A stretch of 64,000 nt of DNA from Eledone cirrhosa (lineage: Eukaryota): contig OZ024750.1 in assembly GCA_964016885.1 (NCBI GenBank), forward strand, positions 54,808,001 through 54,872,000. Reading direction: 5' to 3'. The notes beneath the pieces are model-generated. The model was not told where the DNA came from and made no database searches. It saw only the letters and a program-made list of their open reading frames with translations. The first letter of the stretch is position 1. Each line of letters begins with the position of its first letter. Made by a program: the position numbers and the translations under genes. Shown here piece after piece: positions 2,343-58,783 of this stretch.

Positions 2343-3409
2343 ACCAGATAGAAAAATGCGTACAGCAAAAAAAAAGTAATATTGTTGGAATATAAACCTT
2401 TAAAAATACAGGACAAGAAACTAAAATAAAACTTTAAAAGAATAGGACAAGAAACTAAGATAAAACTTTAAAAGAATAGGACAAGAAACTCAGATAAAAC
2501 TTTAAAGAATTGGACAAGAAATAAAAAAATTTACAATAATATTAGTGGCAAAATTTTTATTGGTAAAAAATCGAGTTCCACATTCATAGGCTCTGGGTTC
2601 CACATTCAGAGGTCGTCGTCAGACCGGGGGGGGATCATTTGATCCTGGTTTGAACACCAATTGGGCCATACCATACCCCTATTTCATCATTCGGCGACAC
2701 GCCTCATGTGTCATGCATAATGTGAATGGGCCCATGAGCACAGATCTTGAGCAGCAGCTGACGGTCTTGTCGTCCCGCTCATCCTTGATCTTGACCAACC
2801 CGTCCATCTTCTCCTTGCATCTTGTCTTTGAGTTCAAGTCCGGCAGTCCAGATGAATGCGTGCCACAGCTTTCTGGTACAGGAAGGGGGAGCAGGAGGAC
2901 TGGAGGGAGGACCGGTGGTTGAGGGAGGTGCCGTAGTCGGTGGTCAGAGTCGACATCTTGTCCCGGTCGTCTTCTCCATCTTCGTCTGGTGTTGCGGGAC
3001 CAGAAGTGCATTCTTGGAGGAGACCTGCAGCTGCATCGGCCAATTCTTCTTGCAATGGTCATTCTGACGGAGCAGAACTGCTCAGGCAACCAACCCCAAC
3101 CAGAACCAATCACTCAGGGGCAATGCACAATGAGAGCATGACAATTATTATGCACTAATCAAGAAGATACTGGGGCATAGCACAGGAAACGAATAAAAAA
3201 AATTGCCACTAATATTATTGTAAAATTTTTTATTTCTTGTCCAATTCTTTAAAGTTTTATCTTAGTTTCTTGTCCTATTCTTTTAAAGTTTTATCTTAGT
3301 TTCTTGTCCAATTCTTTAAAGTTTTATTTTAGTTTCTTGTCCTGTATTTTTAAAGGTTTATATTCCAACAATATTACTTTTTTTTGCTGTACGCATTTTT
3401 CTATCTGGT
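2343..3409. repeat. Long inverted repeat (about 215-bp arms with internal tandem subrepeats) around a GC-richer 630-bp core
   Basis: 2343-~2560 is the reverse complement of ~3193-3409. Confidence 0.9.
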
Positions 3410-3682: not shown

Positions 3683-4042
3683 ATGGACAAAAACCCATGC
3701 AAAGAAATGACTTTGACTGCAGTGATTCTCTCCAATTTACTTACAAAGAAAAACGTGGTCAAATACCTTATCATCTCTGATAAAATGCCCATTGAATCAC
3801 TGAAAATCGGATGCATGGAATTCCTCATAAAATGCACCTATGAATCGGAAGCCATCACATATATCAATGGATATAGGGAGTTGTTCACACTGGAAGACCA
3901 TCACTTCATTTGTGACTTCATCAGTTATCTCCACGATTATCTCAGACACCCAATGCCATTGATAAGAGGTGATCCAATGTGTGAGCATGTAACTAATCTT
4001 ATAGAAGTTGTTATCGACCACCTGGCTTTTAGTGACATTTGA
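3683..4042 (+). CDS. Unknown 119-aa ORF, antisense to the helicase; preceded by a possible mini-intron (GTAAGT at ~3639 ... tttttag at 3681)
   Basis: Open frame, largely retained in the duplicate at 9249-9506; no recognised domain. Confidence 0.4.
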   Translation: MDKNPCKEMTLTAVILSNLLTKKNVVKYLIISDKMPIESLKIGCMEFLIKCTYESEAITYINGYRELFTLEDHHFICDFISYLHDYLRHPMPLIRGDPMCEHVTNLIEVVIDHLAFSDI

Positions 4043-4203
4043 CTGATTTGACTGATAATGATGTATTTTTAAAAAGTATGTGTACATTCTTGTTACTATT
4101 TTAAGGCAATGCAAGCAACAACTATTTAATAAAATGTGTGCATTACTAGTATGATGACATTTTATTAAGTCACAAAATTAGTCAGTCAGCCATAGAACAA
4201 GTA

Positions 4204-4665
4204 TCAGGTGGCAAAAACATTGGCAAAAATTTGTGTCAATTTAAGATTTCCAACATTGTTCAAATGAATCATATCTGGTTTGAAGTCAGATTTGTCAAAT
4301 TTTGACCAATTTTCAATGTTGTGAAGATTGGGCAAGTTCAATTTTTGAATCATTTCTTTCATGCAGTAATTAAACTTTTCCAAACGAGAATATCTCTTGC
4401 CCAAGTCATTTTTATTTTCAATTACACTTTGTGGACGTGGAATGACACCACTGTAGAAAATGGGTGTACAGTGGTGCTTTTCCGCTATTTTCTGTAGCCT
4501 TGCAAAGAAACTCTTCCCCTGTTTTTCCGGTTTTGTGCATCGAATGGGCACTTTGTCCTTAATTTACAAATAAATGATTAATAAAAAATACTTGGGCAAA
4601 AATTATTGTATTACTTTGCACAGCTTTGTAGTGCCAACGGTGCGACGAGGATTCAGATCATTAGA
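4204..4665 (-). pseudogene. SGNH/GDSL hydrolase, 5'-truncated, one 57-nt intron (4558-4614)
   Basis: Block III SNDL splices in frame (GT..AG) to FYSGVIPRP and block V DMIHLNNVG. Confidence 0.75.
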
Positions 4666-5044
4666 GCATGTAACTAATCTTATAGAAGTTGTTATCGACC
4701 ACCTGGCTTTTAGTGACATTTGACTGATTTGGCAGACAACAGATACATTGGATAGACCTACTGCATACTTCGGCACTATCCTCTGACACTGTAGCTTGAC
4801 AAATGTAACAAATTTCCTGTAGTACTACATATAAATGAAAAATTGCTCATGTTACAAAACAACAGTTACATTGGACAGACCTACTGCATATGTCGGCACT
4901 GTCCTCTGACACAGTTGCTTGACAAATGAAACAAATTTTTCATATAGTAGTACAGATTTTTATACTCTATATTATTTTAATGTCTAATAGAGTTCACTTG
5001 GATGTGTAGGACAGAGCATTCTGGAGTGATATTGGACCTATAGT

Positions 5045-6834
5045 TTTTTTAAAAAAAGTAAAACAATATTTGGCAATTTAGGTGGAAATTTTGGGTGCCT
5101 TTTGGTTTTGCACGTGTCACTAATTTCATCCCATTTGTCACCATCTGTGTGAATTAAACAAATGTAATGACCTCCTTATGTGGAACCTAATGTGTGAACA
5201 ATTGCTGATTGAAGTTGGAAATTGGTATAAAAAAACTGCTGACGTTTTGAACTGAAATTCAATAAATCACAATGTATTTGAGTTTCTTGACCACTGGTTA
5301 TGAGGAATCGGTTGATTGATACTACAAGGTAGTGCATTGTGGGTGGGAAATCTCTCCTGATGGTTGTTTTGTGCTCTGTATTGGTGGTGCAGGTGTCACA
5401 TTGTTTTATTATGGTGTCATTTGATATAAGTAAAGTACGGAACTGTTGAGGGCCTTGAATAGGATGCAATGTCAAGTCTGATTTAATTTCTGGTGTTTTG
5501 TGAGTTTCGAGTCCACATCCAGGTCTATGTGTGCAAGTACAAATTTGATCATTCAAACGTGGGCATTCATTTTCATGACTTTTAGTCCATCTTAGTGTTC
5601 CATTCACTTGAAATTGGAATATTTGCTGTGCATTTGGTGGAAAATGTGGGTAGATATTTTTCCAAAAATCATGGGCACATTGCTGAGCACCATCCTTAAA
5701 TCTCCCCCCAATTAATCTTCGCAGAATTGAAACATCCCGATCCCCTGGTGTGACAATATTTGCTATTTCCTGAACAACTGGACTGAGTAATTTGGTAGAC
5801 AACAAAGTTTCCCAAAGTTTGGGCAATAGCTTGAAGTGTGGAATTGGCAAAACAGGCATTTTCCTTATTTTGTAGTCTAATCATGGGAGTGAGCATGGAA
5901 ATTGTAGCTAATTTAAGTTTTTTGGTAGGAGGAGCATATTCAGAAGGGTTGTCCACATTCAACATTCGCCATGATCGTTTTTTTGGTATGCAAGATTCAG
6001 AAGCCATGCATGGTGGTTTATTTCTACATGGTCCAAGTGGAGGCAATTTTGTTGTAGAACGCAATTTGTTGTACTCTTCCCAAGCAGATTTGTCACACAT
6101 GATCAGGGTTCGTGGGTCAAAATCTATCAAATAGACATTGCAGAGTTTCCTAGCTCGTGAAAGTGCAACATAGGCCATTCCATCTGTGAACAACAGAGGA
6201 CCAAGATCAGCAATGACCCCATCAACACTTATTCCCTGTGATTTATGGATGGTGATGGCATAGGCAAGGCTTAGGGGGAACTGTTTTCGTGTCACATACA
6301 CACCAGGAGAGATTTCATAGTCTGCAGTCACCTTTTCTATTGAAATGTCATTGCCTATCATGTGATCAAATTCCACAATGATTTGTCCCATTTTCCCATC
6401 TTTTCCATTGACCATGCTTTGCACTGTTCCCATGACACCATTACATAGCCCCTTCACCAAATTAATGTTTCGTCTCAGCATTACTCTGGCCCCAACTCCA
6501 ACTTGCAATTCAGTCTCAAGTTCAGCAGTGTCTGATGCCTTTTTTGGTTTGGAAAATTTGTTTGACTTTGACTTTTTTTACAACCTTTCTGGCGCATTCT
6601 TGAGTCCTCAGCAATAACTACAACTGTACTGATGTTGGCATGCTTAAGCATTTCCTTGTTGAATTCATCTACAGATTCATTGACAGGCAAAATACAGACA
6701 AATTTTTGACTAGCTAATGTGCAAAGTTGCATTAGTTTCTCAGTTGCCTCTCTCATTGTTGCCCTGCGATCTGGGAATAGGCAATATTCACTCAAAGTCT
6801 TGATGTCCAATTTGATGGGGGACCAAATTTGCAC
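5045..6834 (-). pseudogene. PIF1-family helicase C-terminal half fused to a USP (peptidase C19) domain; frameshifts and a stop
   Basis: VGARVMLRRN..GLCNG, QFPLSLAYAITIHKSQG, AYVALSR; in-frame Cys box LQNKENACFANSTLQ; QQCAHDF; His box AIVHTLGST*GGHYICL..W.EISD. Confidence 0.85.
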
Positions 6835-6889
6835 AATCTAGCTAAAGTCAGAAGTTCTGTACATTTTCTGCCATCAAAATCTTCCTGGT

Positions 6890-7215
6890 CACTTTGCTCA
6901 CCCCCCTCTTTTTGTGCACCTGTCTCACTTTGCTCACCTCCATCAGTTGGCTCATCTACCCCTCTTTGTGGACATTCACTTTGCTCACCTCCATCAGTTG
7001 GCTCATCTACTCCTCTTTGTGGACATTTCTCACTTGGCTCATCCCCCCCTCTTTGTGCACCTCCCTCACTTAGCTCATCTCCCCCTCTTTGCTTGCCTTC
7101 CTCATTTGGCTCATCTCCCCCTCTTTGTGCACCTGTCTCACTTGGCTCATTCCCCCCCCCCCCCTCTTTGTGCACATTTCTCACTTTGCTCACCTCCCTC
7201 ACTTGGCTCATCACC
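6890..7215 (-). repeat. About 39-bp coding-like tandem repeat (GGDEPSEGGAQR type)
   Basis: Repeated cacttggctcatctccccctctttgtgc units. Confidence 0.85.
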
Positions 7216-8291
7216 ATCTTTACACCTGCACTCATTTGTTGGACAGTCATCAGTCAGAAAATTGTGGTTTTCAAGTTCTGTTAGAGGAAAATAATCAACT
7301 GTACTTTTTAGGAATAGAAAGTGTTCATTTGTGAAAGTATGGTAAAATATTTCCCCCCAGTATGCAGTCAACCCCTCCTTCTTAGCTAATTTGATGTGTG
7401 CATAAACTGAAGCCATTGTTTTTTTCAATTCATTAAACATGAAATTTCGAATTCCCTGTGCTTCTCTGTAGATTTTGGAAACTTTTTCAAGGCCCTGCTT
7501 GAATTTCTTCCTATACTGTGTCCAATTTTTTTTTTTTTTTTTCGAAGCCAAATATGATTTTGTGAATTTGTGTAACATGATTTCCCTTTGCATGCGAATG
7601 TCTTTAAATCGTTGAATTCGTTTTTTTCTGTACAAAAATTTGTGTTTTTGTTGTATCAACCGTCCATTTGTAAAATAATAATGTGAAAAATATATGGCAT
7701 CTTTTTCTTTTCCTTCTTCTCCTGTTCTCAATCTGTGTGCTTTTTGATACAATGCCTGTTGACGTTTGCCCTCATCGCCTGCTCTCACTCTGTGCTCTTT
7801 TTGATTCAATGCATGCTGATTTTTGCCCTCAGTCTGCGCACTTTTTGATACGATGCCTCTTGACTTTTGCCCTCATCGCCTCTTCTCAGTCTATATGCTT
7901 TTTGCCATGCCTTATTTTTAAATTTTGCTTCGTCTGATTGTCTTTTTTCTCTTATTTCTGCAGCTTTCCGTTGTCTGTACTCCCTATTCCTAATTGCAGT
8001 TTTTCTCCGTTTTTCATTCTCTTTATCAATGTTTTGATCTTTGTCAGTCTCATTGAATTCAAATTCAGGTCCAGGATTTAATTCGACACAACCGATTATG
8101 AGTAATGATAAGATTAACGCGCGCGTTCTATATTTCTGATTGGAAATAGGATAATTTCGTTTTTTGAATTTGTAAAAACTGGCATGAATGTGAATTTGAT
8201 CAGTCCAATTGCCCGATTTTAGTGAAAGGTATTGATTCGAAATGGAAATACTCCATTTCTGTGCCATGGAAAAACTGAATAAGCTGAGCAA
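7147..8291 (-). pseudogene. N-terminal region of the element's ORF: 2A-like motif, then basic 19-aa repeats (QKxxRLRxGDEGK)
   Basis: ORFs 7806-8291 and 7147-7809 overlap at a frameshift and share the repeat. Confidence 0.6.
8067..8105 (-). other. 2A-like (StopGo) peptide motif LLIIGCVELNPGP
   Basis: Matches hydrophobic-G-D(V/I)ExNPGP except D->C. Confidence 0.7.
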
Positions 8292-9228
8292 AATTCTATA
8301 TCCAGAGAAATTCTTTTTTTTTTTTTAATTCTTTTTTTTTTTGTTTTTATCAAACTATGCTCGCAATAATAATTTTCAATCCAAAAGAGAATTTTTTTGT
8401 TAAACGTCGAAAAAACTCTTTCTTTTGTGTAGTATTTTTGTGTTCGTCTGTATGCGTGAGTTACTTGTGTTACCATGAAAGTTATAACAGAAATATTGTG
8501 TAGGTTGCGTGCTTCAACAAATGGAATATTATGAATTTTATGGACTTACGCTAAGCGAGTCTAGAAACCCGATTCGAATATTCCAAATGTTAAGCCACTC
8601 CACATTTCCGTTAAAACGACTGGCGAATTCAAATAGGCTGCGTTTTCATACTTAATCGTCGAGGGTCACAAATTTAGTGTAGATATATTGTCACCAATTT
8701 GGTTTAGGTATAAATTCGAATTTAGCGGAGAAGAATATTTAGAGAGTTGTTGTGTTGTTGCCACGAGGAACCAGGTTTGGTAGAAAGATACGATAGGAAT
8801 ATCGACAACGAATTTTAGCTTGTTTTTACATTATTTATTAATAAAGGTTAAGAAGTGAATTAAGATGGCATGCCAAGAATAATGAAATAATTCAATTAAG
8901 ATTACAAGAGAAAATACGGGCGACTGGCTGAAGGCGTTTGGTCAGGCTCGTAGGTAATGTTTTGTCGTTACATATTGTTTGTGCTTACGGAGCAAAAGAA
9001 CAAGTGTTGTTTATCTTAACACGGTCTAGTGATAGCGTCCTCAAATCTTTGCGGGCTATTTCTCCCTCCGAACGTGTAGGGATACATCCTCTTCTACTGG
9101 CGCTGATTGGCTGAGCTGAGCCAAATCACGCACAGAGAATGTATGTGAGCCCGCGGAATGTAGGTCACTACACCTGGTATATGAAGAGCAACCGATACGA
9201 TCGGTCTTGAAGAAGAATGAAGAATGAA

Positions 9229-9850
9229 ACCTTATCATCTCTGATAAAATGCCCATTGAATCACTGAAAATCGGATGCATGGAATTAATCATAAAATGCA
9301 CCTATGAATCGGAAGCCATCACATATTTCAATGGATATAGGGAGTTGTTCACACTGGAAGACCATCACTTCATTTGTGACTTCATCAGTTATCTCCACGA
9401 TTATCTCAGACACCCAATGCCATTGATGAGAGGTGATCCAATGTGTGAGCATGTAACTAATCTTATAGAAGATGTTATCGACCACCTGGCTTTTAGTGAC
9501 ATTTGACTGATTTGACTGATAATGATGTATTTTTAAAAAGTATGTGTACATTCTTGTTACTATTTTAAGGCAATGCAAGCAACAACTATTTAATAAAATG
9601 TGTGCATTACTAGTATGATGACATTTTATTAAGTCACAAAATTAGTCAGTCAACCATAGAACAAGTATCAGGTGGCAAAAACATTGGCAAAAATTTGTGT
9701 CAATTTAAGATTTCCAACATTGTTCAAATGAATCATATGTGGTTTGAAGCCAGATTTGTCAAATTTTGACCAATTTTCAATGTTGTGAAGATTGGGCAAG
9801 TTCAATTTTTGAATCATTTCTTTCATGCAGTAATTAAACTTTTCCAAACG
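9229..9850 (+). repeat. About 620-bp direct repeat of 3765-4386
   Basis: Near-identical sequence, including most of the 119-aa ORF and the SGNH 3' end. Confidence 0.95.
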
Positions 9851-10095
9851 TCGTCATTTCTGGATTACCTCCCCTAGCGTCACGCTTACTACTCACTCAC
9901 TTGAACACGAGATTTATCAGCAAACTTTGATTATAAACTTTTTCCCGCTGGACCAAATTTCTAGATTTTTAAGCCAAAAGATGCGTAATGATCTACTGTT
10001 CATGCTCATATAAGTTTTATCTCAGTTAAATAAAGTAGAGCCGCGCTGTACTGTCGTCGTCCCTTTAGGACTAAACGGACTACCGCCCGTTTAGG

Positions 10096-11525
10096 ATATG
10101 GCGACGTACACAAATATACATATACACACATACATACATACATATATGGCGACGTACACAAATATACATATACACACATACATATATATATGGCGACGTA
10201 CACAAATATACACACATACATACAGATATGGCGACGTACACAAATATACATATACACATACATACACACATATATGGCGACATACACAAATATACATATA
10301 CACACATACACACATACATACATATATCGCGACATAAACAAATATACATATACACACATACATACTGCATATATGGCGACGTACACAAATATACATATAC
10401 AAAGTGGACGTGTAGGCGCCACGAAGAAGCACCCAGCACTCACTGTAAATGAGGTTGGTGTTAGGAAGGGCATCCAGCTGTAGAAATCAAGCCAGATCAG
10501 TTCCTGTATGAGCAAGGCATGGTCAGCCGACCAGACACTGCCCACAACAGGACAACCCGTCTAACCCATGCTAGCGTGGAAGAACGGACGTAAAACGGTG
10601 ATGATAATGATGATGATGATGACATACATACATACATATATGGCGACGTACACAAATATACATATACACATACATACATATATATATGGCGACGTACACA
10701 AATATACATATACACACATACATACATATATGACGACGTACACAAATATACATACACACATACATACATATATGGCGACGTACACAAATATACATATACA
10801 CACATACATACATATATGGCGACGTACACAAATATACATACACACATACATACATATATGGCGACGTACACAAATATACATATACACATACATACATATA
10901 TGGCGACGTACACAAATATACATATACACACATACATACATACATACATATATGGCGACGTACACAAATATACATATACACACATACATGCATATATATA
11001 TGGCGACGTATACAAATATACATATACACACATACATACATATATGGCGACGTACACAAATATACATACACACACATACATACATATATGGCGACGTACA
11101 CAAATATACATACACACATACATACATATATGGCGACGTACACAAATACACACATACACACATACATACATATATGGCGACGTACACAAATATACATATA
11201 CACACATACATACATATATGGCGACGTACACAAATATACATATACACACATACATACATATATGGCAACGTACACAAATATACATATACACAAATACATA
11301 CATGCATATATGGAGACGTACACAAATATACATATACACACATACATACATACATATATGGCAACGTACACAAATATACATATACACACATACATACATA
11401 TATGGCGACGTACACAAATATACATATACACACATACATGGCGACGTACACAAATATACATATACACACATATACACACATACATACATACATATATGGC
11501 GACGTACACAAATATACATATACAT
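10096..11525. repeat. Minisatellite, about 42-50-bp unit with core atatggcgacgtacacaaatatac
   Basis: Many tandem units; explains the spurious Y/I/H/T-rich ORFs. Confidence 0.97.
10402..10622 (+). mobile_element. 5'-truncated RTE LINE 3' end with (GAT)n tail
   Basis: Near-identical to 46843-47058. Confidence 0.92.
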
Positions 11526-12131: not shown

Positions 12132-12144
12132 TATATATATATAT

Positions 12145-13100
12145 ATATGAAAAAGTTTGTCCTCATCAGTGGCCATCCAACCGTCGTAGGCATTTCGTCG
12201 CATTAAAGGCCATATACCTCAGGTTGGTGCGAGCAACGGCTAAAATAAAGTCGTTGGGACACGTAAATAAAGGGGACGCTAGGGTAAACAAACAAAATGG
12301 TTTAAGCAGTACCCTAGCGTCCCCTTTATTTACGTGTCCCAACGACTTTTTTTTAGCCGTTGCTCGCACCAACCTGAGATATATGGCCTTTAATGCGACG
12401 AAATGCCTACGACGGTTGGATGGCCACTGATGAGGACAAACTTTTTCATATGTAACCCATTTGCAGCGCCGCAGCTCCATTATTATCATATTTACACATA
12501 TATTTTTTCCTCCGCTGCCACCAGTCTGTTTCGTTCTTTGTGTCTTTACCCTTTCTAGCAGTCTCTCTGTTAGCCTCTTCCTCACCTTTCACTCACTCAC
12601 TCTCTGTCACCACCTCTCCTCCTCCCCTTTCTTCCCGTTTGACCTGTCCGTAATCCTTTTCTCGCGGACACTTGGCCAAGCCGGTATGAATTTTTTTCTC
12701 TCTCGTCTGCAACTTCACAGAACTTATGTTTACCGAATTCGCAGACCAGACCCCTTCTTCCTCCCGTTAGACCTGTGCGAAATTCCTTCCTTGCTCACAT
12801 TACAACCAGGTTTGATGGTCTTTATTCTCTCGTTCACGATTCCACCAAATTTATATTCATAGAAATCTGGGACTTGTTTCCTTCTTCATCACTTTCTGCT
12901 GCTTAAACCATTTTGTTTGTTTACCCTAGCGTCCCCTTTATTTACGTGTCCCAACGACTTTTTTTTAGCCGTTGCTCGCACCAACCTGAGGTATATGGCC
13001 TCTAATGCGACGAAATGCCTACGACGGTTGGATGGCCACTGATGAGGACAAACTTTTTCATATGTAACCCATTTGCAGCGCCGCAGCTCCATCATTATCA
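12145..13100 (+). mobile_element. Non-autonomous element with Penelope-type architecture: inverted partial repeat plus two direct ~190-bp repeats, flanked by (TA)n
   Basis: 12145-12286 reverse-complements 12310-12451; 12310-12490 is repeated at 12922-13100. Confidence 0.7.
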
Positions 13101-13489
13101 TATATATATATATACGCACATATATTTATAAATATATACTCTTATGTATTGCATTAAATATTCTACACGTGTATATATATATATTTATATGAATATATAT
13201 ATATACTCTTATGTGTATACGTCTGAAAATGTATATATGTATGTAAATATATTTTTATACATACATGTATACATATAGATGGTCAGTTATGCACATAAAA
13301 TATTTCATTTATTTATATACATACAATGAATTATTAACTTATTAAAAACTACAATGTATGATTAAATTATGTTTGATTATAATGTCTATGACAGAAAATT
13401 ATTATAATTGATCTAAATTAATGTTAAAATAAATTTTTAAAAATCTAAATAAACAGTTTATTTGTCAACATAACCGTCGTGATAATATT

Positions 13490-17515: not shown

Positions 17516-20485
17516 ATCATCATCACTGTTTTACGTCCCTTCTTCCACGGTAGTATGGGTTAGACAGGTTGTCCTGTTGTGGGCAGTGCCAGGTAGGGTG
17601 ACCTTGTCTTGCTCAGATGGGAACCGATTTTGGCTTGATTTTTACAGCTGGATGCCCTTTGTTTTAATGAGTTTATATCTACTTAAAGCATGTATGAGAG
17701 GTATTTTAAGGCTTAAACTATGAAAACAACGGTTGTCTTTATGGTCTCTCTATATCACGGTAGTTTCTGGAACGTATCCTCACAGTGAGTGATGGGTGCT
17801 ATTTTGTTGTGACACCTCCGTGGCCACTTTACAGTGGGAGGGGGTAGGGGCATATTGTCTATATGCTTCAGTTTCGGCTTGTACCCGTGGGAAGTCTGGT
17901 CTTCTATATTACTGTGTGAAACCAGAGGTCACGGTCCGGTGTCATCGCCTTCGGGTGGTGCAATTGAGTAAGGTCAGCTTTCATCACCTCATCCCAGGTC
18001 TTCTTGGGTTTCCCCACTCCATGGCTTCCATTGACTGCTAGTGCTCTGCATCTGTTTATGTAGCTTTCATCCTTCATACACATCACATGTCCATACCAAC
18101 ACAACCTCCTCCCCTTCACACAGCATTTGATTCCTCTTATGCTCAGTCTGTCTTTCAATTTGTTAATGCTTTACCGTTCATGTATATTAATATTACACAT
18201 CCATCGGAGCATGCAAGCGTCGTTTCTTTCTAATCTACGCAAGTCTTCTACACATAGCGCCCAGGTCTCACTACCATTGTTTGGTGGTGCTTGTTTCTTT
18301 AGTTCTGCCATAGATTCAGCTATAAGTGTAAGATCATCCGCATATAGGAGTTCCTATGGGCATCCGGTCTTAAACTCTTCTGTTATAGCCTGCAATACTA
18401 TAATAAACAGGAGAGGGGTAAGAACAGAGCCCTGGTGGACACCGACCTGTATGCTAAATTCCTCGCTATAGTCATTGTTAACTCTTTGCTGACTGCTCCC
18501 CTATACATGGCATGTACAGCTTTCACAAGCCAATAATCTACTCCTAGTTTTCTAAGAGGCCACCAGATTATAGCAAGGGGCACTCTGTCGAAGACTTTTT
18601 CCAGATCGACAAAAGCCAGGTGGAGCGGCTTGCTTTTAGCTAGGTACTTTTCCTGTAACTGCCTCAGAAGGAAGAGGGCATCAGTGGTGCTTTTTCCTGG
18701 CACAAACCCAAACTGCATCTCACCTAGTTTTACCCAGTCCCTGATCAACTGTGCTATGACTCTTTCCATTACTTTCATAACCTGGTCCATCAGCGTTATA
18801 CCTCTATAGTTTATTCTATCTAGTGCATCTACTTTAACCTTGTAGCAGTTGACAATGATGCTGTTGCACCAATCCTTTGGTATGACACCCACTAGTATTC
18901 CCTGATTAACAATATATGGTTATTACTTTATCTACCCATTTCTCAGTTAATAGTATACCTACACCACCCATCCCATTGTCATTTCCCACCCAGAAAAGTT
19001 TATAGCACTAACTTTCGCCTACAAGGACTCTATCGGACTCTCCTCTCCATCTAGTCTCTTGCCCAGAGCATACATCAATATCCTTTCACTCTAGCATGTC
19101 TATAATTTCTCCTTCCCTTCCTTCCATTGTGCTTATGTTGATGCTGCCAACTAAGAGTTTTGGACATTTGCCATCATTTGTGGGAGAGGGTGAATTTTTG
19201 CGGGGGAGTGTGTATGCTTCCTGTCTCTGAATTAAAGCTTCGTATGGGTGCTTGGTAACTCGCGGATTTATATTGATTTATTTATTCGGGGTTGTTCCAT
19301 TTATCCTTCACTCCTCCATACATAACAGTAAACAAGAATTCTTTGGTGCAGGGCTAGAAGGACAGTAGTAGTAATGGCAGAGTTTGTTTGGGTTGGTAAG
19401 GGCTAGAAGGACAGTAGTAGCAATGGCAGAGTTTGTTGGGGCTGGTAAGGGCTAGAAGCACAGTAGTAGTAATGGCAGAGTTTGTTGGGGCTAGTAAGGG
19501 CTAGAAGGACAGTAGTAGTAATGGCAGAGTTTGTTGGGGCTAGAAGGACAGTAGTAGCAATGGCAGAGTTTGTTGGGGCTGGTAAGGGCTAGAAGGACAG
19601 TAGTAGCAATGGCAGAGTTTGTTGGGGCTGGTAAGGGCTAGAAGCACAGTAGTAGTAATGGCAGAGTTTGTTGGGGCTGGTAAGGTCTAGAAGGACTAGT
19701 AGTAATGGCAGAGTTTTGGGGGCTGGTAAGGTCTAGAAGGACAGTAGTAGTAATGGCAGAGTTTGTTGGGGCTGGTAAGGGCTAGAAGGACAGTAGTAGT
19801 AATGGCAGAGTTTGTTGGAGCTGGTAAGGTCTAGAAGGACTAGTAGTAATGGCAGAGTTTGTTGGGGCTGGTAAGGTCTAGAAGGACAGTAGTAGTAATG
19901 GCAGAGTTTGTTGGGGCTGGTAAGGGCTAGAAGGACAGTAGTAGTAATGGCAGAGTTTGTTGGGGCTGGTAAGGGCTAGAAGGACAGTAGTAGTAATGGC
20001 AGAGTTTGTTGGGGCTGGTAAGGGCTAGGAGGACAGTAGTAATAATGGCAGAGTTTGTTGGGAATAGTAATGGGTAAGGACATGTTGCTGAGGTTTGATT
20101 GGTCAAATAGCCTATGGTGGTGAGTGGGAAATTGTGAGATAGGTAGCCATCATGACATATATCATCACAGCAGATTCGGGGGAAATAAGCAGATATAAGT
20201 AGACATATTAGACAAGGCAAGTATGCAAGAACTTCAAAGATGGTCACCTAGCTTTGAAAACACCGAAATGAATGAGTGAGAGAAAGGGGAGGTAATGGCG
20301 GGGGTTAGGGATGAGTTTGTAGAGAAAGACATAATGTCCAACATGGTTTATATCAAAAACAAGGTCGAAGTATATACGTTGTGGAAACAAGTGAATGATA
20401 ATAATAATAATGTAAACAGAACATTTTGAAATTGGGGAAGAGAGATAGCTGTAGAATAGAAATAATCTATGGATGTCTTGGATAT
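17516..20485 (-). mobile_element. Internally deleted, decayed RTE LINE
   Basis: RT fragments 17904-18892 (AFVDLEKVFDRVP) homologous to the intact copy; 3' tail at 17516; 5' UTR-like region beyond 19100. Confidence 0.85.
19351..20062. repeat. 49-bp minisatellite (about 14 copies)
   Basis: gggctagaaggacagtagtagtaatggcagagtttgttggggctggtaa. Confidence 0.95.
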
Positions 20486-21190: not shown

Positions 21191-22139
21191 GTTGCTTTCA
21201 GCAGGTTCACTTTCAAGGATTGCCACTGTTACTCTATATTACATGTCTCTAATTGATCTTCCTTATTGTCAAAGGCATCAAGTAATAGGCTTTTAAATTT
21301 GTCACTGGCTATGGGGTCCTTTAACTTCCATAATCTTCTACTCAAGGTAGTCTACAATTTACCAATATAGAAATATAAAATTTCCACTGTTAAATCTATC
21401 TCTGCTTCTAAAGTATTCTGTATTATCTCATACTGTTTCTTTCTTATTTCAGAATATCAGATGACATTGGGATAAATTATTATTTTCAATCTTGGATACA
21501 TCACCTCTATTTATCATCATTTTAAGACTAAAACATTCTAAGCAGAACTTATATAACACTGTTTATATAAATCTCTCGTCGTATTACTGTGAAATATTTC
21601 CTCAAAACTGAGTTTATTTTCTTCACTATCAGATGATTTTGTATTTTAACTAAACGTGGATGAAAAAGAAGTTTGTATTATCTTCAGATATTAACTGAAA
21701 TATAGTTGAGGGAAATATAGAAGAAGAAATATTTTATAAGAAATATAATATAAAAAAATTACAAGGAAAACATCTGTATATTCTGTTGAAGAAGGAATAA
21801 TTATGGAAAATAATTGACAAAGAAGATTTAATGCGAAACACAATCTAAAGTGTTTAGTATTCCTGGTGAGATGACGAAGGTTAGAGAAGAGAAGCCATAT
21901 CACTGTGATATCTGGTAAATCATTTAATAAACTTAGTACCTTTAACTACTCACAAAGTTATACATACAGAAGATAAGCCATATTGTGATATCTGTGGTAA
22001 ATCATTCTCTCGAAGTAGTGACTTAACTTCTCACATACGTACCCATACAGGAGATAAGCCATATCACTGTGATATCTGTAGTAAATCATTCTCTCTCAGC
22101 AGTCACTTAACTGATCCCAAACCTACCCATACAGGAGGC

Positions 22140-22964
22140 ATGCCATATCACTGTGATATCTGTGGTAAATCATTCTCTGGTAGTAGTTCTTTAATTAGGC
22201 ATAAACGTATACATACAGGAGAGAAACCATATCAATGCGATATCTGTGGTAAATCATTCTCTAATAGTAGTACCTTAACTTCTCACATACATACCCATAC
22301 AGGTGAGAAACCATATCACTGCAATATCTGTGGTAAATCATTCTCTCAAAATAGTCACGTAACTGATCACAAACGTATACATACAGGAGACAAGCCATAT
22401 CACTGTGATATCTGTGGTACATCATTCTCTCAAAGTAGTCACTTAACTTCCCACAAACGTATACATACAGGAGACAAGCCATATCACTGTGATATCTGTG
22501 GTAAATCATACTCTGATAGTAGTCACTTAACTAGACACAAACGTACACATACGGGAGACAAGCCATATCACTGTGATATCTGTGGTAAATCATTCTCTCT
22601 AAGTGGTACCTTAACTAGCCACAAATGTACCCATACAGGAGAGAAGCCATATCACTGTGATATCTGTGGTAAATCATTCTCTCTAAGTAGTACCTTAACT
22701 AGCCACAAACGTACCCATACAGGAGAGAAGCCATATCACTGTGATATCTGTGGTAAATCATTCTCTGAAAGTAGATCCTTATTTAAGCATAAACGTATAC
22801 ATACAGGAGACAAGCCATATCACTGTGATATCTGTGGTATATCATTCTCTCAAAGTAGTAACTTAACTGCACATAAACGTACCCATACAGGAGACAAGCC
22901 ATATCACTGTGATATCTGTGGTAAATCGTTCTCTTCTAAAGAGTACTTAATGCAACACAATTAG
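22140..22964 (+). CDS. Tandem C2H2 zinc-finger protein (9 complete fingers, 1 partial); ancestral N-terminus disrupted, so possibly a pseudogene
   Basis: CxxC-x12-HxxxH with TGEKP/TGDKP linkers; acceptor at 21451-52; AATAAA at ~23025; ancestral ATG 21803 followed by TGA 21815. Confidence 0.85.
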
Positions 22965-27084: not shown

Positions 27085-30000
27085 ATATCATCACACATCA
27101 TCACTCATCGACTACTGTCGAGATGATGGATCTCACTCTCATGCCCCAGAATCCCCTGCCCCCAGGTCCTGTCTGCTGATTCCCGTATCCCTAGAGATAA
27201 CGTCAGGGAATGACAGCTTCCTACTCCTAGTCAGGCTGGTGTCAGGGTTCCAGAGCAAGAGAGCGGATATGATTTCATTGCTGGCACGGTGACAGTGGCC
27301 AGCAAATTGAGCTCGCCGGGATTTTAGAAGGGCAGAGGCTCGAGGGAGTTTGCCATAGATTTTAGACAAGGTGGGATGTCGTTTCCAGGATAGGTTTTGC
27401 ACTCTCATTAAGAGGCGGGTATATGTGCCATCCAATCTCCTCTCAAGTTGTGATGTTAGTGTCCAAGTTTCGGATCCATAAAGTAATATGGACTAAAGGG
27501 TTGCTTGGAATATTTCCAGTTTTAGCTTGTTGGTAAGTTGAGATGTCCATATGGCGTGCATGTCATTGCACGCTGACCATGCCATACCTTTCCTGGTTAG
27601 AAAATCTTTTTTGGAGGAGGAGATATATGAGCCAAGATACTTGTAATCTTCCACCTGCTTAAGGGTGGTACCATTAAGGGTTCTGATGGGGTAGTTTGGG
27701 CTGTTTGCGCATCTGTTCACACACTCAGTCTTGGATTCGTTGAGGTACAGTCCAACACAGTTGGACGCTGGCTCTAATGACTTCAAAAGACTCTCAGCAT
27801 TTTCCAGTGACCGACTGATCAATGCGATGTCGTCAGCAAAGTCGGTGTCGGTCAAGTATTTTGCTGGGTAGCGTGAGCTTCTCCTAGGCTGTAGTTGGTA
27901 TCCCCTATCCTGAATCCTATCCACAGACATGCGCAAAACATAATCCACAACAGTGATAAATAGATACGGAGCAAGGGTATCGCCCTGTAAAATTCCAGCG
28001 AGGATTGAGAAAGGTGGTGTTTCCCCATCTGGGGTCAGGACAGTTGATTTGGTATCTGTACACATTACACGTATGGCCGCGATGATTTTATCAGGAATCC
28101 CATAGTGTTGATCTACCTCTCCTAAATCCATTCTGGTTGTTACGAAGGATTGGCTCAAAAAATGGGATTAAGCGGTTAAGAAGAAGCTTGTTGTATATTT
28201 TTGCAGCAATTGCCATGAGAGAAATTCCTCTATAGTTGGTGGCTAAAGAAAGATCTCCTTTTTTGGGCATGGGGATAATTTGAGCTGCATGCCAGACGCT
28301 AGGTGGTTTATTGGTCTCGAAAGTATGGTTACATAAGTTGAGCAAAAGGATGTGGAAATGCTCATCCTTCCAAATCAGGGTAGGTATATTATCCGGCCCA
28401 AAGGCTTTTGAGGCTTTGAGCTGTTTGATGGTTTCTTTGAGCTCAGGCATGGTGAAAGGAGAGGTGTTGATTCCTAAAGGCTCTGAAACCTGAACGGATG
28501 GCAGTTGATAGTTATCAGGGAGTCTGGCCTTTTTCCCTAGAAGTTTTTTAAAATGAGCAGACCAATTTTCAAGACGTTTTTTGGCAGAGCCTCCCTTTAT
28601 TCTAACTGCAGAGTTTGAGTTTTTGCCTGAAAGATCTTTGACAACCTTCCAAGCAAGATGATGGTGTTTGCTGATGTGATGTTGCGATAGCTGATCAATC
28701 CTACCTGAGATATAGTCGGCTTCAGCATTAAGATAAGCGTCGTCTAGTGATTTTTTGGCCATGATAAGCTGTATCTTTTTCCCTTGAGATGGTGATTGAT
28801 GGTGAGATTGGGATATTGACCTAAGATGGGCCCTTGCCTCAACTACCTTCTCTGAGGCACTAGCTTTCATTTGGCTTCGGCTTTTCTTTTTAGATAGGGT
28901 GGCAAGTGCAACTTCCTCTGTTGATTGCTTAAGACAGTCATACACATCCTCAATATTATCGTCATTGATGTCAGAAGTTGAGAGAGATTGAAATCTGTTA
29001 TAGACTTGAAGCGTGAAGCTATTGGATAGTTGTTTGTTGGAAGAAACGGCTTTCCAGTCTATTCTTTTCATGGGGTGAGGTTCGGCCCTCTTGGATATCC
29101 TGAGGCTAAGTTTGATTGTTGCCAAGATGACTCGATGATCTGACCCAACAGAGCTAAAGGAGGAATAATATCTAGAATCTTTGATTGAGTTTCTCCATTT
29201 CTTGCGAAATATCAAATAGTCAATCTGAGCTCGTTTTTGGTTTGGGTATTTGAAGGTCTAAAGCCGGTCTCTGGTCTTCATGAAGCTGTTGTTTGAGCTG
29301 AATAGACTGAATTCTTCCATGAAGTCCTTGAGACATTCCCCGTTTCGGTTAGTAACCCTATTGTATGTGAACTTTACTTCATCCGGGCCAAGTTGAGCGT
29401 TGAGGTCTCCAGCGATGATAAGAAAGTTGTGTAAGGGTACTTGCTCAACAACTGTGCGAAGGGTCATGTAGAATTCTCTTACCTCATCCTCAGGAGAGGC
29501 GTTATGAGGACTGTATACACATATCGCAGTGGTTCTAGGATTGCCCTCTAGTGTAAGCACCAAGATGGGAGAGATTGTTTCAATCCCCAGAAGATTATTG
29601 CTGGCTTTAGATGAGAGAAGGCAGCCGACTCCTCCGACGGAGGCATTGACAGGGTTCTTGGTGGCTGAAGAGGTGACAAGTTGGTAGGATCCTAGGGTGT
29701 GATACTTGAGATCATCCTTTGGGTGGAAAAAGCGGTGTTCTTGGACCGCAAGGATGTCAATGTTCTGAAGTTTGGCATTCTCTGCCAGCTCCTGGAGTCT
29801 AGCTGTTGGAAGGAGGGTTCTGGTGTTCAAGGAGCTAACTATTATTTGCTTTTTACAGCTAACTAAGCGAGATTTGCTTGCTGTTTGGTTAGGACCTGTT
29901 TCTTCTCCATCAGATGAACCCCGTCCCTTGAGATTTGAGGATTCATCATCATTCGATGCCTTTGTAGGTGCATTATGATCAGAAACAGGACCTGGGAAAG

Positions 30001-30823
30001 CAGGGGCTGGACCTATATCAACAGGTATACCATATAGTGTGGTTCCCTGAGGAACAGGAACCCTGGTGCAGTTAATTGTGAAATCCATCATCTTTTCAAA
30101 TAGCTAATAATGTGTGTGGGCGCCACTACTACACACATGTGAAAGAATTTGACAGCCAAGTCTTGAAGAAGGTGCTTTCTCCTCCGTGTGGTGGGTTACC
30201 CGGCGCCAGATACCAACCTGGTATTTATACCCTCGCCCTAATTGTTCGTGTTGCAAGCACTAGAGTAGTCGCTAACCAAAGCTACGGACCCACTCTATCC
30301 GTCTGGAGATACGTTGTACTAGCTTACCAGCATACTAGTAGCAGGAAGTTGACTTTTCGGCGGGCCGTGCTGGTTTTGGATGGCCATTGACTCCAAGAGC
30401 TCTTAAGAGCTCCCAGGAGTTCCTTTGCCCTTCGACAGGTTTTATTTTTAGTCCTGCAGGATGTCCAAAGTCACCTTCCTCACCAAGAAACCTTGGTGGG
30501 GTTGCCAGTTTAGTCGCCAACGACCCGACCATGAGACAGGTTGTACTGGGATACATGTTACCAGTAGCACCAACTGGTGACCTGACCATGTGTGAAATCC
30601 ATCATCTTTTCAAAGACGTATCAGAGAACCTTGAGATTTTCAGCTTCGATCATCACATCGATTGTACCCAGAGCTGGTCGCCAGAGAAACGATTGTAATA
30701 TGTCCACTAAATTCCACTCATCGCAACACTGATTCTCTCTTTTTCTGTGATATACTCTGCTCTATGAGAGCATCGAGTGCTCAAACGGCCTACTGCATAT
30801 GGACGCTTTAAGCATCCAAAACC

Positions 30824-42678: not shown

Positions 42679-45600
42679 AGGTATTTTAGCCTACATATTG
42701 TCGTTAATATTATGATGTTCCCTGCTGTATTAGCGTTAAATTTTCCCTGCTGTATTAGCGATAAATTTTCGAGGGTTTCTCTTAGTAGCTTTTTCATGTC
42801 GTTAATATTATGATGTTCCCTGCTGTATTAGCGTTAAATTTTCCCTGCTGTATTAGCGATAAATTTTCGAGGGTTTCTCTTAGTAGCTTTTTTCATGACG
42901 TTATTATTGTTAATTTTACTGATGTAGTATTAACTTATTAACTTGGATATTTACCATGCGGTATTCTAATCCTATTGTATCTCTCTCAGTTATTTACCAT
43001 GCGACCCTCAGTTCCTACCCCCCCCCCCCTCTCTATGCACTTCTTTAAGGCTTACTACCCTGTCTTTAACCTAATTCATTCAATCTGAAAATATTGAAGA
43101 GATAAGACACTTTGCCATTCTTCTCTGCTAAAATGTACCACTAGAGTTGATTCAAATTTTCCCAGCCAGCCATCCACCTAATCTACGAAGGTATTTTAGC
43201 CTACATATTGTCGTTAATATTATGATGTTCCCTGCTGTATTAGCGTTAAATTTTCCCTGCTGTATTAGCGATAAATTTTCGAGGGTTTCTCTTAGTAGCT
43301 TTTTTCATGACGTTATTATTGTTAATTTTACTGATGTAGTATTAACTTGGATATTTACCATGCGACCCTCAGTTCCTACCTCACAATTTCCCTCCCCCCC
43401 ACCCCCACTCACCACCATAGTCTATTCGACCAATCAAACCTAGCATGCCATTTCCACTGCTGCTGCTGCTACTACCTGCCTAACTAACTCTCTCCTCCTC
43501 TGGCGCATCCCAACACACCCTGCCATTACCCCACCACCACTGTCCTTCTAGCCCTCAATTTTCCCACCGTTATGGATGGATGAGCTGGGAATACACGAGC
43601 AACTCTGAATCAATAGATGAAATATGAATCTGCGAGCTACCAAGCACCCACGTGAAGCGCCAACCCAGAGACCCTCCCCTACGAGTGTCGACAAATGCCC
43701 AAAACTCCGAGTTGGTACCATCAATGTAGGCTCAATGAAAGGAAGAGCAGGAGAAATCGTAGAAATGCTAGAGCGAAAGGAAGTTGATGTATGCTGTGTG
43801 CAAGAGACTAGATGGAGAGGAGGGTCTGCTAGAGTCCTTGTAGGAAAAAGCCAGTGCTACAAATTTTTCTGGGTGGGAAATGACGATGGGATGGGTGGTG
43901 TAGGTATACTATTAGCTGACAAGTGGGTAGATAAAGTAATCTCAGTGTACAGGGTAAATGCAAGAATCATTAAACTCAGACTAGTCCTGAATAAGACAAT
44001 TACCACAATAATATCAGCTTACGCACCCCAATCGGGGCTGCCAGACGAACTTAAGGATAGGTTTTACGAGTCCCTAATACACACTACTGCTCTAACAGAC
44101 GACAAGGACTTCCTAATCATTGCAGGAGATTTTAACGGACACGTAGGTAAACACTGCGCCGGCTTCAATAGAGTACATGGAGGCCATGGAGTTGGCACAA
44201 GGAATGAGGAAGGATTCAGACTTCTAGAATTCTGCGACGCCAATGACATGTCGATATGTAACACAAACTTTAAAAAACCCGACAACCACCTGATCACCTA
44301 TAGATCAGGGGAGCACTCTAGTCAGTTAGATTTTATCCTCATCAGAGGACGTGACAGATGGACGGTCGTAAACACAAAAGCCTTCCCTAGTGAGGAATGT
44401 ACATCCCAACATAGCTTAGTTGTCAGCGACCTCACGGTCAGAACTAGACGAGCCCTGAAACAGAGGCCAACCTGGAGAAGAAAGATCTGGAAGCTGAAAG
44501 TCCCCTCAACCAGTAACAGATTTAAAGATATTTTACTCAACGCCTACGACAGTAAAGAAGAACAGATAGAGACATTTAACGTAGAAGAGAACTGGGAGTT
44601 CCTAAAAAATAACTTACTAGAGGCGACGGATGAGGTTTGTGGCTGGAGTAAGACCTCAAGCAGGAGGAGAGTGACTTGGTGGTGGAACAATAAGGTAGAT
44701 GAAGCAGTCAAGGCCAAGAGACAGGCATGGAAAGAATGGAAGAACGGGGGGAGCAGGGTACATTACATAGAGACCAAGAGGGAAGCTAGGCGACAAGTAT
44801 ACTTAGCTAGGAGGGAAGCAGAGGATAGAAAATTCAAGCATGTTTTACAACGTGAGGACCAGAAACAGGAGGTATTCAAGATTGCGAGGCAGTGTGTCAG
44901 AGATAGTTGTGATGTCATTGGAGAGAAGTGTATCCGGAATGATAAAGGTGAGCTTGCCCTCACAAGTGCTGAGAAGAAAGATGCATGGAAGAGTCATTAT
45001 GATAGATTACTAAATGAGGAGAATGCATGGGAAGAAGAGACCCTACCCCACGTAGACCCTATAGAGGGACCAGCAGTACAAGTCAGCGGCAGCGTAGTAA
45101 GTAAGGCAATCAGAGATATGAAGATAGGGAAGGCAACCGGTCCATCGGGTATAGCTGCCGAGATGCTGAAGGCATCTGGGTCTGTAGGTCACACTATAAC
45201 CACACGTATCGTTAACCAGGTAATACTAGAGGGGGCCATACCAAAAGATTGGTGCAGTAGCATCATTGTCAACTGCTACAAAGGTAAAGGCGATGCACTA
45301 GATAGAGGAAACTATAGAGGTATAAAGTTGATGGACCAGGTCATGAAAGTAACAGAAAGAGTTATAGCACAGCTGATTAGGGACCGGGTGAATATAGACG
45401 AGATGCAATTTGGGTTTGTTCCAGGGAAAGGCACCACTGATGCGCTCTTCCTTGTGAGGCAATTACAGGAAAAGTACCTAGCTAAAAGTAAGCCACTCTA
45501 CTTGGCATTTGTCGACCTTGAGAAAGCCTTTGACAGAGTTCCACGTGCAGTAATCTGGTGGGCTCTTAGAAAACTAGGAGTAGATGAATGGCTTGTGAAA

Positions 45601-48156: not shown

Positions 48157-48927
<771 letters not shown>

Positions 48928-49700
48928 ACTAGTCACAAATGTATACATACAGGTAAGAAGCCATATCACTGTGATATCTGTGGTAAATCATTCTCTGTAT
49001 GAAGTAGTTTAACTAGACACAAATATACCCATAGAGGTGAGAAACCATAACAAAGTCATATCTCATTGTCTCAAAATGGTGAATTAATTACACACAAATA
49101 CATTCATATGAGTGAGAAGCCATACCACTATGATATTGGGGAGAAATTATTCTCTTTCATTGCTACATTTACATATAAACATATATATACTGGAGAAAAG
49201 CCATATCACTGTAATATTTGTGGTAAATTATTAACTATGAAAGCTCACTTAACTAGATACAAACATATACATACAGGAGAGAAACCATATCACTGTGATA
49301 TCTGTGGGAAATCATTCTCTGAAATAAGTCATTCACTTGGCACTAACATTTACAGAAAAGGAACCATATCACTGTGATGTCTGTGGTAGATCATACTCTA
49401 AATGTTGTGGCTTCACTACACACTAACATATACAGGTGAGGAACCATATCACTGTGATGTCTGTGATAAATCATTCTCTAAATGTTGTGGCATCTCTATA
49501 CATGAACATCTACATTCCGGAAAGGAACCATATCACTGTGATGTCTGTGGTAAATTATGTTCTAAATGTTGTGGCTTCACTAGACACTAACATATACAGG
49601 AGAGGAACCATATCACTGTGATGTCTGTAGTAAATCATTCTCTTGTAAAGGTTACTTAATGAAACAGAAACACATTCAGACAGGATAAAAACCATATCAC
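48928..49700 (+). pseudogene. Decayed zinc-finger units in the putative 3' UTR of ZNF gene 2
   Basis: 84-bp units with stops and frameshifts; AATAAA at ~49739. Confidence 0.85.
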
Positions 49701-49990
49701 TCACCCAAAATAATGCCACCAATGTTGTCAATGTTTTGAATAAAACGTGTTTATTCTGAAATTATTCTCCTTTAATTTTATTTGTAGAAGTTATAACCAA
49801 GACTTGTGCTGACAAAACTGTATGCTACAGAATTTACAAACACTATATATATATAGTAATAATAATAATAAATGGGAAGAATAAAATCCGAAGAGGGCTC
49901 GATAAGGATAAATATATATCAAATACATAAAAACCATAGAAGAAAGATTTATTAAAATAACAGATTAAAGTTTAAGCAAAGAATATATAT

Positions 49991-58777: not shown

Positions 58778-58783
58778 TTTATC

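What the first reader, a model, noticed from the sequence alone, without database searches (positions are those of the whole stretch)
5045..6834. PIF1 helicase fused to a USP-family deubiquitinase in a rolling-circle-type element
Seen: the USP Cys box lies in the same ORF as helicase motifs V/VI, followed after a frameshift by QQCAHDF, a CxxC, LVVSINRF and a His box. The helicase signature (RVMLRRN, TIHKSQG) differs from the canonical Helitron in this window (LRNL.PPRL, TINKAQG) and fits Helitron2/Helentron. Known: Helentrons often carry OTU proteases and a C-terminal AP endonuclease. A C-terminal USP in that position is not something I recall as characterised. Inference: a distinct lineage with its own DUB, for polyprotein processing or anti-silencing. 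Rep and Walker A/B are absent here, so the class is inferred.
Basis: partly seen in the sequence, partly recalled or inferred. Interest (0 to 1): 0.8.

Follow-up and report, generated by a model that had tools for sequence, protein, structure and literature searches.

The report
Rolling-circle transposon with swappable deubiquitinase tail
This is a broken copy of a rolling-circle jumping gene whose intact relatives in the same genome make one long transposase ending in a domain predicted to remove ubiquitin, likely to keep the host from destroying it; such domains were listed in these elements in 2024, but the direct fusion, the unusual ends and a likely ribosome-skipping signal seem undescribed.

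Summary
Observation confirmed. Window 10096-2344 (minus strand) is a dead 7.75-kb copy of an HLE2-type Helitron. A private 3.9-kb deletion removed Rep and helicase motifs I-III.

The fusion is real. Sibling copies carry helicase and USP in one frame (PF00443 over cut-off; USP fold, Foldseek E 2.5e-17). A sister family has 7 copies with an unbroken 2230-2245-codon DUF6570-Rep-Pif1-USP frame; 5 compared differ by 1-10 nt. It has no endonuclease, so it is not a Helentron proper.

USP (UCH) cargo in HLE2 is already catalogued (HELIANO 2024), and this scan found it twice on other DNA.

Not found in print:
(1) USP in the transposase frame; HELIANO places it in another ORF.
(2) Four families with TC...CTRG ends, A|T targets, a 5' hairpin and short inverted repeats, as in the oomycete proto-Helentron.
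(3) The slot after the helicase holds USP, OTU or Ulp1 across one clade, with dead-USP-plus-new-protease intermediates.
(4) A StopGo/2A consensus motif near the N-terminus (window 8067-8123).

The likely role is protecting the transposase from ubiquitin-driven removal (inferred, untested). Verdict: new variant of a known kind.

The parts
10071..10096 (-). 5' terminus: TC start preceded by A, 10-bp hairpin with GGTA loop. This copy has one stem mismatch and has lost the 13-bp subterminal inverted repeat that follows in siblings.
   Evidence: 398 exact matches to the family's 34-nt 5' end in the genome, 0 for the reversed control
9229..9850 (-). Duplicate of a 3'-untranslated segment (window 3765-4386) inside the 5' region, shared with one sibling copy
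8067..8123 (-). StopGo/2A-like peptide (L-rich stretch then G-CVELNPG/P) near the start of the transposase frame (ORF 7806-8324)
   Evidence: matches (D/G/C/N)(V/I)ExNPGP of PMC12846837
6809..8324 (-). N-terminal part of the transposase gene, frameshifted: leader, basic repeats, 18/36-bp tandem repeat at 6889-7156
6808..6809 (.). Junction of a ~3.9-kb deletion that removed DUF6570, the HUH Rep domain and helicase motifs I-III; unique to this copy
6100..6808 (-). C-terminal half of the Pif1-family helicase (2B domain, motifs V and VI), frameshift near 6580
   Evidence: PF21530 26.7 bits, PF13538 32 bits, both over cut-off
5041..5880 (-). USP/C19 domain: Cys box 5840-5878 (Cys at 5852-5854), QQCAHDF 5665-5685, zinc-finger cysteines, His box 5164-5175, ISD 5116-5124. 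Broken here by an 8-nt deletion (~5818-5823) and a TAA (5176-5178).
3196..3408 (+). Inverted copy of the element's 3'-terminal ~200 bp, about 1 kb from the end; present in all four families of this genome
2344..2390 (-). 3' terminus: subterminal inverted repeat, weak palindrome, T-run, CTGG, followed by T

Best explanation
The locus is a dead, internally deleted copy of an HLE2-type rolling-circle transposon whose intact relatives encode one Rep-helicase-USP protein, and the USP tail is predicted to be an active deubiquitinase that likely protects the transposase from ubiquitin-driven removal. Shown: the element, its ends, the A|T target without duplication, the single frame, the USP fold, the kept catalytic Cys and His, and purifying selection on the domain. 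Inferred from established Helitron biology: Rep nicks the 5' end and binds the DNA covalently, and the helicase peels the strand off to the CTRG end. Inferred and untested: this covalent protein-DNA adduct is a substrate for SUMO- and ubiquitin-dependent clearance (pathway recalled), and a tethered isopeptidase reverses the tag. That would explain why USP, OTU and the SUMO protease Ulp1 can each fill the same slot. In families A and B a 2A-like peptide would likely split a leader of roughly 70-130 residues from the transposase during translation. Odds: identity of the element 0.97; USP active on ubiquitin or a ubiquitin-like protein 0.8; self-protection as the main role about 0.5.
For: One frame: L009 has helicase motifs V/VI plus a whole USP in 508 codons; L051 has 2412 codons with one stop. 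Family D has open frames of 2230-2245 codons at 7 loci with DUF6570, Helitron_like_N, PIF1 and UCH all over cut-off; 5 of these differ by 1-10 nt in 6690. Fold: pLDDT 88.4; best PDB matches USP21, USP30, USP2, E ~3e-17, TM ~0.7-0.75. Cys and His are kept in 20 of 20 aligned element USPs (rows were chosen as UCH hits). dN/dS of the USP is 0.42 (95% CI 0.26-0.70) between families A and B and 0.15 (0.09-0.30, dS near saturation) between B and C. Of the 120 listed longer homologs (316 found), 17 carry UCH, always after the helicase; 45 of the 51 annotated with OTU (one of them only) have the OTU motif after the helicase, and Pfam placed it there in one more; 3 carry a C-terminal Ulp1. In the helicase tree, 44 of 61 rows form one clade (100/98) whose deepest branches carry USP, and OTU needs 4 changes. 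Intermediates exist: Cys-less USP plus OTU (P0050, P0069) and Cys-less USP plus intact USP (P0016, sponge). The USP tree repeats the supported sister groups of the helicase tree. Zebrafish Helitron VTD domains are proven K48/K63 deubiquitinases, and the authors propose protection from the proteasome (PMC9741609).
Against: No enzyme assay, substrate or transcript. The USP is less constrained than the helicase (dN/dS 0.42 vs 0.11 between A and B). Seven of the 20 A/B matches share a deletion of most of the USP and still spread; they may have been moved in trans, but the domain may also be dispensable. Families A and B have Ser where USP36 has Asn at the third catalytic position; family D has Asn; Ser-type USPs are recalled, not checked. 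Nothing here tells the transposase from chromatin as the substrate. The 2A motif is missing from family D and was found in only 2 of 24 related clusters. Deep branches of both trees are poorly resolved and the sample is biased toward hits to one query.
Confidence: 0.55

Rival explanations
1. The USP acts on chromatin or replication factors at the donor or target site (for example H2A/H2B ubiquitin or PCNA), countering silencing or fork repair instead of protecting the transposase.
For: It is tethered to a DNA-tracking helicase. The closest solved relatives by sequence include USP36, and the nearest stand-alone hits look like the same group, though weakly. Ulp1 in the same slot also fits SUMO-dependent silencing (recalled).
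Against: No substrate data. Three unrelated isopeptidases with different specificities fill the slot, which fits a general anti-degradation role better than one histone mark.
Confidence: 0.22
2. The USP cuts the polyprotein itself, as viral papain-like proteases do.
For: The protein is 2200-2900 residues long. An LLGG lies between Rep and helicase in families B and D.
Against: No Gly-Gly occurs between helicase and USP in B or D. The LLGG is not conserved as such in the six other USP-bearing relatives checked, nor in family C. USP, OTU and Ulp1 would need different cut sites.
Confidence: 0.08
3. The USP is a passenger, a captured host gene fragment that helps little.
For: Helitrons capture genes often. 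A USP-truncated sublineage has 7 copies. Constraint is weaker than on the helicase.
Against: dN/dS is below 1, catalytic residues are kept across sponge, crustacean and metagenomic relatives, the domain is co-inherited with the helicase, and a protease is kept in the slot after each swap. It is no recent capture: element USPs group apart from the one full host USP and one viral USP tested (97/90; only two outgroups, with a long-branch warning).
Confidence: 0.12
4. The fusion is an accident of this copy, or an assembly artefact.
For: The window copy is heavily broken.
Against: The same junction occurs at many loci in four families of 46-98% identity and in unrelated datasets.
Confidence: 0.01

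Closest known systems
UCH-bearing HLE2 elements, subgroups c and d (HELIANO, Li et al. 2024, PMC11417382; sections 4, 22, 23, 24 and supplement rows read, figures not seen)
   Same: HLE2 transposase with DUF6570 and PF00443 as stable cargo; no endonuclease.
   Different: The paper counts UCH among 17 domains 'encoded in different ORFs' and places OTU upstream of RepHel. Here USP, OTU and Ulp1 are in-frame at the C-terminus. Its subgroups c/d come mostly from lungfish and axolotl. I could not place our elements in its tree.
proto-Helentron of Phytophthora infestans (PMC4067079, passages; revisited in PMC11417382 section 24)
   Same: HLE2-type RepHel without endonuclease, 3' CTAG, insertion between A and T without duplication, 5' stem-loop, ~12-nt inverted repeats.
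   Different: It starts with TT, not TC; its 5' stem-loop lies 3.6 kb from the left repeat, not beside it; cargo is SET/TIR. HELIANO reports no similar element in 404 genomes, whereas four families occur in this animal genome.
FoHeli3-5 / 'HLE2-reverse' of Fusarium oxysporum (PMC5148889, passages)
   Same: Hairpin at the 5' end upstream of a 13-16-bp inverted repeat, no strong 3' hairpin, 9-11 kb.
   Different: Ends are TGCCT and CTCCTGT with no established target preference; no protease domain reported in the passages read.
Helentrons with OTU and VTD deubiquitinases (PMC9741609, passages)
   Same: A rolling-circle transposon carrying its own deubiquitinase; the VTD domains are shown to be active.
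   Different: Different protease class, C-terminal AP endonuclease present; such rows lie outside the 44-row clade.
StopGo/2A peptides of RNA viruses and non-LTR retrotransposons (PMC12846837 section 9 and passages; bioRxiv 2026.06.17.732966 passages)
   Same: L-rich stretch ending in G, then (D/C)(V/I)ExNPGP; the Cys variant is reported as functional.
   Different: Here the motif is in a DNA transposon's transposase frame. No paper holding both 'Helitron' and '2A-like' was found.

Membership tests
Helitron-like element (any) | HUH Rep and Pif1 helicase in one protein | tested here: met
   PF14214, PF23343, PF05970 over cut-off in L051 and L307; deleted from the window copy
Helitron-like element (any) | Dispersed copies with sharp ends and no target-site duplication | tested here: met
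   Removing TC...CTAG from a family D copy restores the flanking satellite unit: 79 matches vs 0, 0, 0 for shifted ends
HLE2 group | DUF6570 marker and HLE2-type transposase | tested here: met
   PF20209 65 and 64 bits; far from the window's HLE1 in the tree
HLE2 group | Short subterminal inverted repeats | tested here: met
   13 bp in A/B, 11 bp in C, 10 bp in D
HLE2 group (canonical) | Insertion between T and T; stem-loop after the right repeat | tested here: not met
   A precedes 72 of 72 distinct 5' ends (45+11+16); T follows 12 of 12 outer 3' ends in A/B and 8 of 8 in D; the strong hairpin is at the 5' end
Helentron (strict) | C-terminal AP endonuclease | tested here: not met
   No Exo_endo_phos hit in L051 or L307; the frame ends with the USP
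HLE1 (canonical Helitron) | 5'-TC, CTRR-3', A|T target | tested here: met
HLE1 (canonical Helitron) | HLE1-type transposase, no inverted repeats | tested here: not met
   DUF6570 and repeats present; 44% identity over only 34 residues to the window's HLE1 helicase end
proto-Helentron | HLE2 enzyme without endonuclease, 3' CTAG, A|T target, 5' stem-loop | tested here: met
proto-Helentron | 5'-TT start | tested here: not met
   All four families start TC
proto-Helentron | Same clade as the Phytophthora element | not tested
   Reference sequence not in hand
HELIANO HLE2 subgroup c/d | Placement in that paper's tree | not testable with these tools
USP / peptidase C19 | PF00443 over curated cut-off | tested here: met
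   49, 41 and 39.6 bits vs 23.9
USP / peptidase C19 | USP fold with Cys box, His box and zinc-finger cysteines | tested here: met
USP / peptidase C19 | Third catalytic residue Asn/Asp | tested here: inconclusive
   Ser-Asp in A/B, Asn-Asp in D
USP / peptidase C19 | Cleaves ubiquitin isopeptide bonds | not testable with these tools
   Needs an assay
StopGo/2A peptide | (D/G/C/N)(V/I)ExNPGP core with L-rich upstream stretch | tested here: met
   8 A/B copies; 9 occurrences vs 0.0 mean in 200 shuffles of 272,351 residues of related proteins, from 2 clusters; degenerate in one C copy
StopGo/2A peptide | Co-translational peptide-bond skipping | not testable with these tools
   Needs a reporter assay

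The most novel reading that the evidence does not exclude
A widespread animal clade of rolling-circle transposons combines an HLE2 enzyme with HLE1-type ends and needs a tethered ubiquitin/SUMO isopeptidase at the transposase C-terminus to rescue its covalent Rep-DNA intermediate from host clearance. The slot is renewed by appending a new protease (USP, OTU or Ulp1) while the old one decays. Some lineages release the transposase by StopGo recoding, which would be the first case in a DNA transposon, and family D is a still-active element on which all of this can be tested.
Probability: 0.3. Interest if true: 0.8.

Novelty: new variant of a known kind. Interest (0 to 1): 0.55.

Why it matters
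Why many transposons and viruses carry ubiquitin and SUMO proteases is largely open. Here three unrelated protease families replace each other at one position of one transposase, with intermediates preserved, which points to a required function and not chance cargo. Family D supplies near-identical intact copies with defined ends, so a wild-type versus catalytic-mutant transposition test is feasible. The ends extend a layout so far reported from an oomycete and a fungus to an animal, and they blur the rule that ends and enzyme type go together in HLE1 and HLE2. A working 2A peptide would extend StopGo recoding to DNA transposons.

Tried and rejected
Pfam on the window pieces alone: no UCH hit, because the domain is split.

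Viral contig scan: of 80 loci none showed a Rep motif, and two had stand-alone USP frames. No viral home for the element was seen.

Expression: no RNA holder listed; no reads were laid.

Both ends of one insertion in a repeated host element: the 5' side matched A|T in 4 of 5 paralogs that could be read, but the 3' end of that copy was not found.

Whether the window's own flanks restore its neighbouring satellite: the expected string was not found (0 matches), so this is inconclusive.

Multi-USP proteins among the 86 hits looked like domesticated copies, but the five looked up are bird and plant gene models of ordinary host USPs. Ten of the 86 hits carry helicase motifs.

Gly-Gly processing sites: not conserved.

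2A motif in metagenome loci: none in the 160 loci scanned, most being partial or unrelated. The peptide CVELNPGP is not in the supplements of PMC12338488.

(DNA alignment of ends) had two wrong coordinates and was not used. No complex prediction was run. In the helicase tree 15 of 120 proteins were dropped for lack of a regex anchor, and 61 of 108 rows were used. Supplements of the bioRxiv papers and all figures were not visible; HELIANO Fig. 7 and S9-S19 could bear on USP position and on end structure.

Full report
Observation. The helicase end scores over cut-off for Pif1_2B and UvrD_C_2; the split USP gives no Pfam hit in the window. Besides the frameshift after the Cys box there is a TAA before the His box and a second frameshift near 6580.

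The family. The genome is 3.0 Gb in 1796 contigs; I infer an animal from zinc-finger arrays and LINEs in the window. A DNA search gave 57 matches from 40 scored candidates: 20 at 88-100% identity (families A and B, window included) and 20 longer matches at 65-70% (family C). In siblings the helicase runs straight into a whole USP, scoring 49 and 41 bits against a cut-off of 23.9. A family B copy reads 2412 codons with one stop: leader, basic repeats, DUF6570, Helitron_like_N/Rep, PIF1, 2B, UvrD_C_2, UCH. A protein search with the USP found 119 matches and a fourth family, D, at about 46% identity, with open frames of 2230 or 2245 codons at 7 loci. These have the same domain order. The element is 12,852 bp, and the five 2230-codon frames differ by 1-10 nt. 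Family D is therefore very young and probably active (inferred).

The window copy. It runs from 10096 to 2344. About 3.9 kb holding DUF6570, Rep and helicase motifs I-III is deleted at 6808/6809, and that junction occurs once in the genome. The copy is dead and did not spread in this form.

Ends. All four families start with TC, fold a hairpin from base 3, carry a 10-13-bp subterminal inverted repeat, and end CGCATTTTT-N-CTRG. The stem changes in a compensated way between A and B, and entirely in C, around the same GGTA loop; D has a longer stem. An A precedes 72 of 72 distinct 5' ends. A T follows 12 of 12 outer 3' ends in A/B and 8 of 8 in D; in C all 8 begin with T, but five of these look like inner copies. 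Removing TC...CTAG from a D copy restores the surrounding satellite (79 matches, 0 for three shifted alternatives). There are 398 exact copies of the A/B 5' end. So an HLE2 enzyme sits between HLE1-type ends. This resembles proto-Helentron and FoHeli3-5; HELIANO states it saw nothing like proto-Helentron in 404 genomes. Each family also has an inverted copy of its last ~200 bp about 1 kb upstream; its role is unexplained.

The USP. AlphaFold2 gives pLDDT 88.4, and Foldseek returns USP21, USP30 and USP2 at E about 3e-17. Cys and His are kept in 20 of 20 aligned element domains. dN/dS is 0.42 between A and B and 0.15 between B and C, against 0.11 and 0.10 for the helicase end. Against this, 7 of the 20 A/B matches share a deletion of most of the USP.

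Beyond this genome. Of 316 longer homologs the best 120 were listed; 17 carry UCH, always directly after the helicase, among them sponge and brine-shrimp proteins of up to 2795 and 2696 residues. OTU follows the helicase in 45 of 51 by motif, with three at the N-terminus and three unplaced by the regex; three have a C-terminal Ulp1. In a 61-row helicase tree, 44 rows form one clade (100/98); its deepest branches carry USP, OTU needs four changes, and no bootstrap tree made either label a single group. Two clusters show a Cys-less USP followed by OTU, and the sponge cluster a Cys-less USP followed by an intact USP; these Cys-less domains group together (100/99). The simplest reading is append-and-decay: a new protease is added at the end and the old one is lost. 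The direction depends on a weakly resolved backbone and is inferred.

A 2A-like motif. Near the N-terminus families A and B read L-rich-G-CVELNPGP (8 copies, window 8067-8123), and one C copy keeps a degenerate version at the same place. Two of 24 related clusters have canonical GDVEYNPGP or GDIETNPGP at the same position; many predicted proteins start at a later Met, so a leader would be missed. Family D has none. PMC12846837 extends the core to (D/G/C/N)(V/I)ExNPGP and reports about 90% activity for the Cys variant tested, while D-to-A abolishes activity in F2A. Function here is untested.

What is known. HELIANO lists UCH (PF00443) as stable HLE2 cargo, enriched in subgroups c and d, but among domains in separate ORFs. 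Helitron VTD domains are proven deubiquitinases. Searches for Helitron with USP terms returned only these papers as relevant; Helitron with '2A-like' returned none. The library lacks most subscription papers, and Repbase and Dfam were not available. Two earlier notes of this scan describe the same fusion in other genomes and cite the same paper; I had reached that reading before the look-up.

Mechanism and verdict. The most likely role is a tethered isopeptidase that reverses ubiquitin (or SUMO) tagging of the transposase, in particular of its covalent DNA intermediate (pathway recalled, about 0.5). Chromatin deubiquitination (0.22), passenger (0.12) and self-processing (0.08) follow. The in-frame fusion in intact young copies, the end structure, the protease relay and the 2A-like motif make this a new variant of a known kind; interest 0.55.

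Noticed in passing
window 54298-60264 (+): A canonical HLE1 Helitron (Helitron_like_N, PIF1), broken into several frames, with a second Rep-region copy at 59203-60261.
   Followed up: partly
window 21888-22950 and 48157-49701 (+): Arrays of C2H2 zinc fingers (84-bp period).
   Followed up: no
window 27139-30103 (-), 43621-46743 (+), 18398-18919 (-): LINE-type endonuclease/reverse-transcriptase frames; the 1040-codon frame also has a PHD-finger hit at residues 778-821, beside the RT.
   Followed up: no
window 10096-11524: 44-bp satellite directly abutting the element's 5' end; similar repeats follow 5' fragments of the family in two other copies.
   Followed up: partly
window 12142-13114: Nested inverted and direct repeats (168- and 145-nt arms at 98%), MITE- or foldback-like.
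   Followed up: no
L307-L320 (G000, e.g. C2:253894021-253906872): Family D: 12.85-kb, near-identical intact RepHel-USP elements, probably still active.
   Followed up: yes
L013-L019: Seven family A copies share one deletion that removes most of the USP and part of the 3' region.
   Followed up: partly
L051:7361-7363 and L048: Both family B copies (99.4% identical, different flanks) share a TAA inside the helicase, so they likely came from an already broken donor.
   Followed up: partly
P0493 (2931 aa) and P0042: Relatives with extra N-terminal domains: Ulp1-like motifs by eye plus a C-terminal USP in P0493; an NYN nuclease domain in P0042.
   Followed up: no
P0021, P0032, P0038, P0039, P0070, P0071: Two OTU motifs in tandem after the helicase, another possible stage of the protease relay.
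   Followed up: no
L327 (G000:C1:271835324-271836355): A host USP lying in a 3773-codon uninterrupted frame, USP34-like by recall; unusual as a single exon.
   Followed up: no
P0005: A RepHel-USP protein labelled as from a Gammaproteobacteria bin in NCBI; probably eukaryotic contamination of that bin.
   Followed up: no
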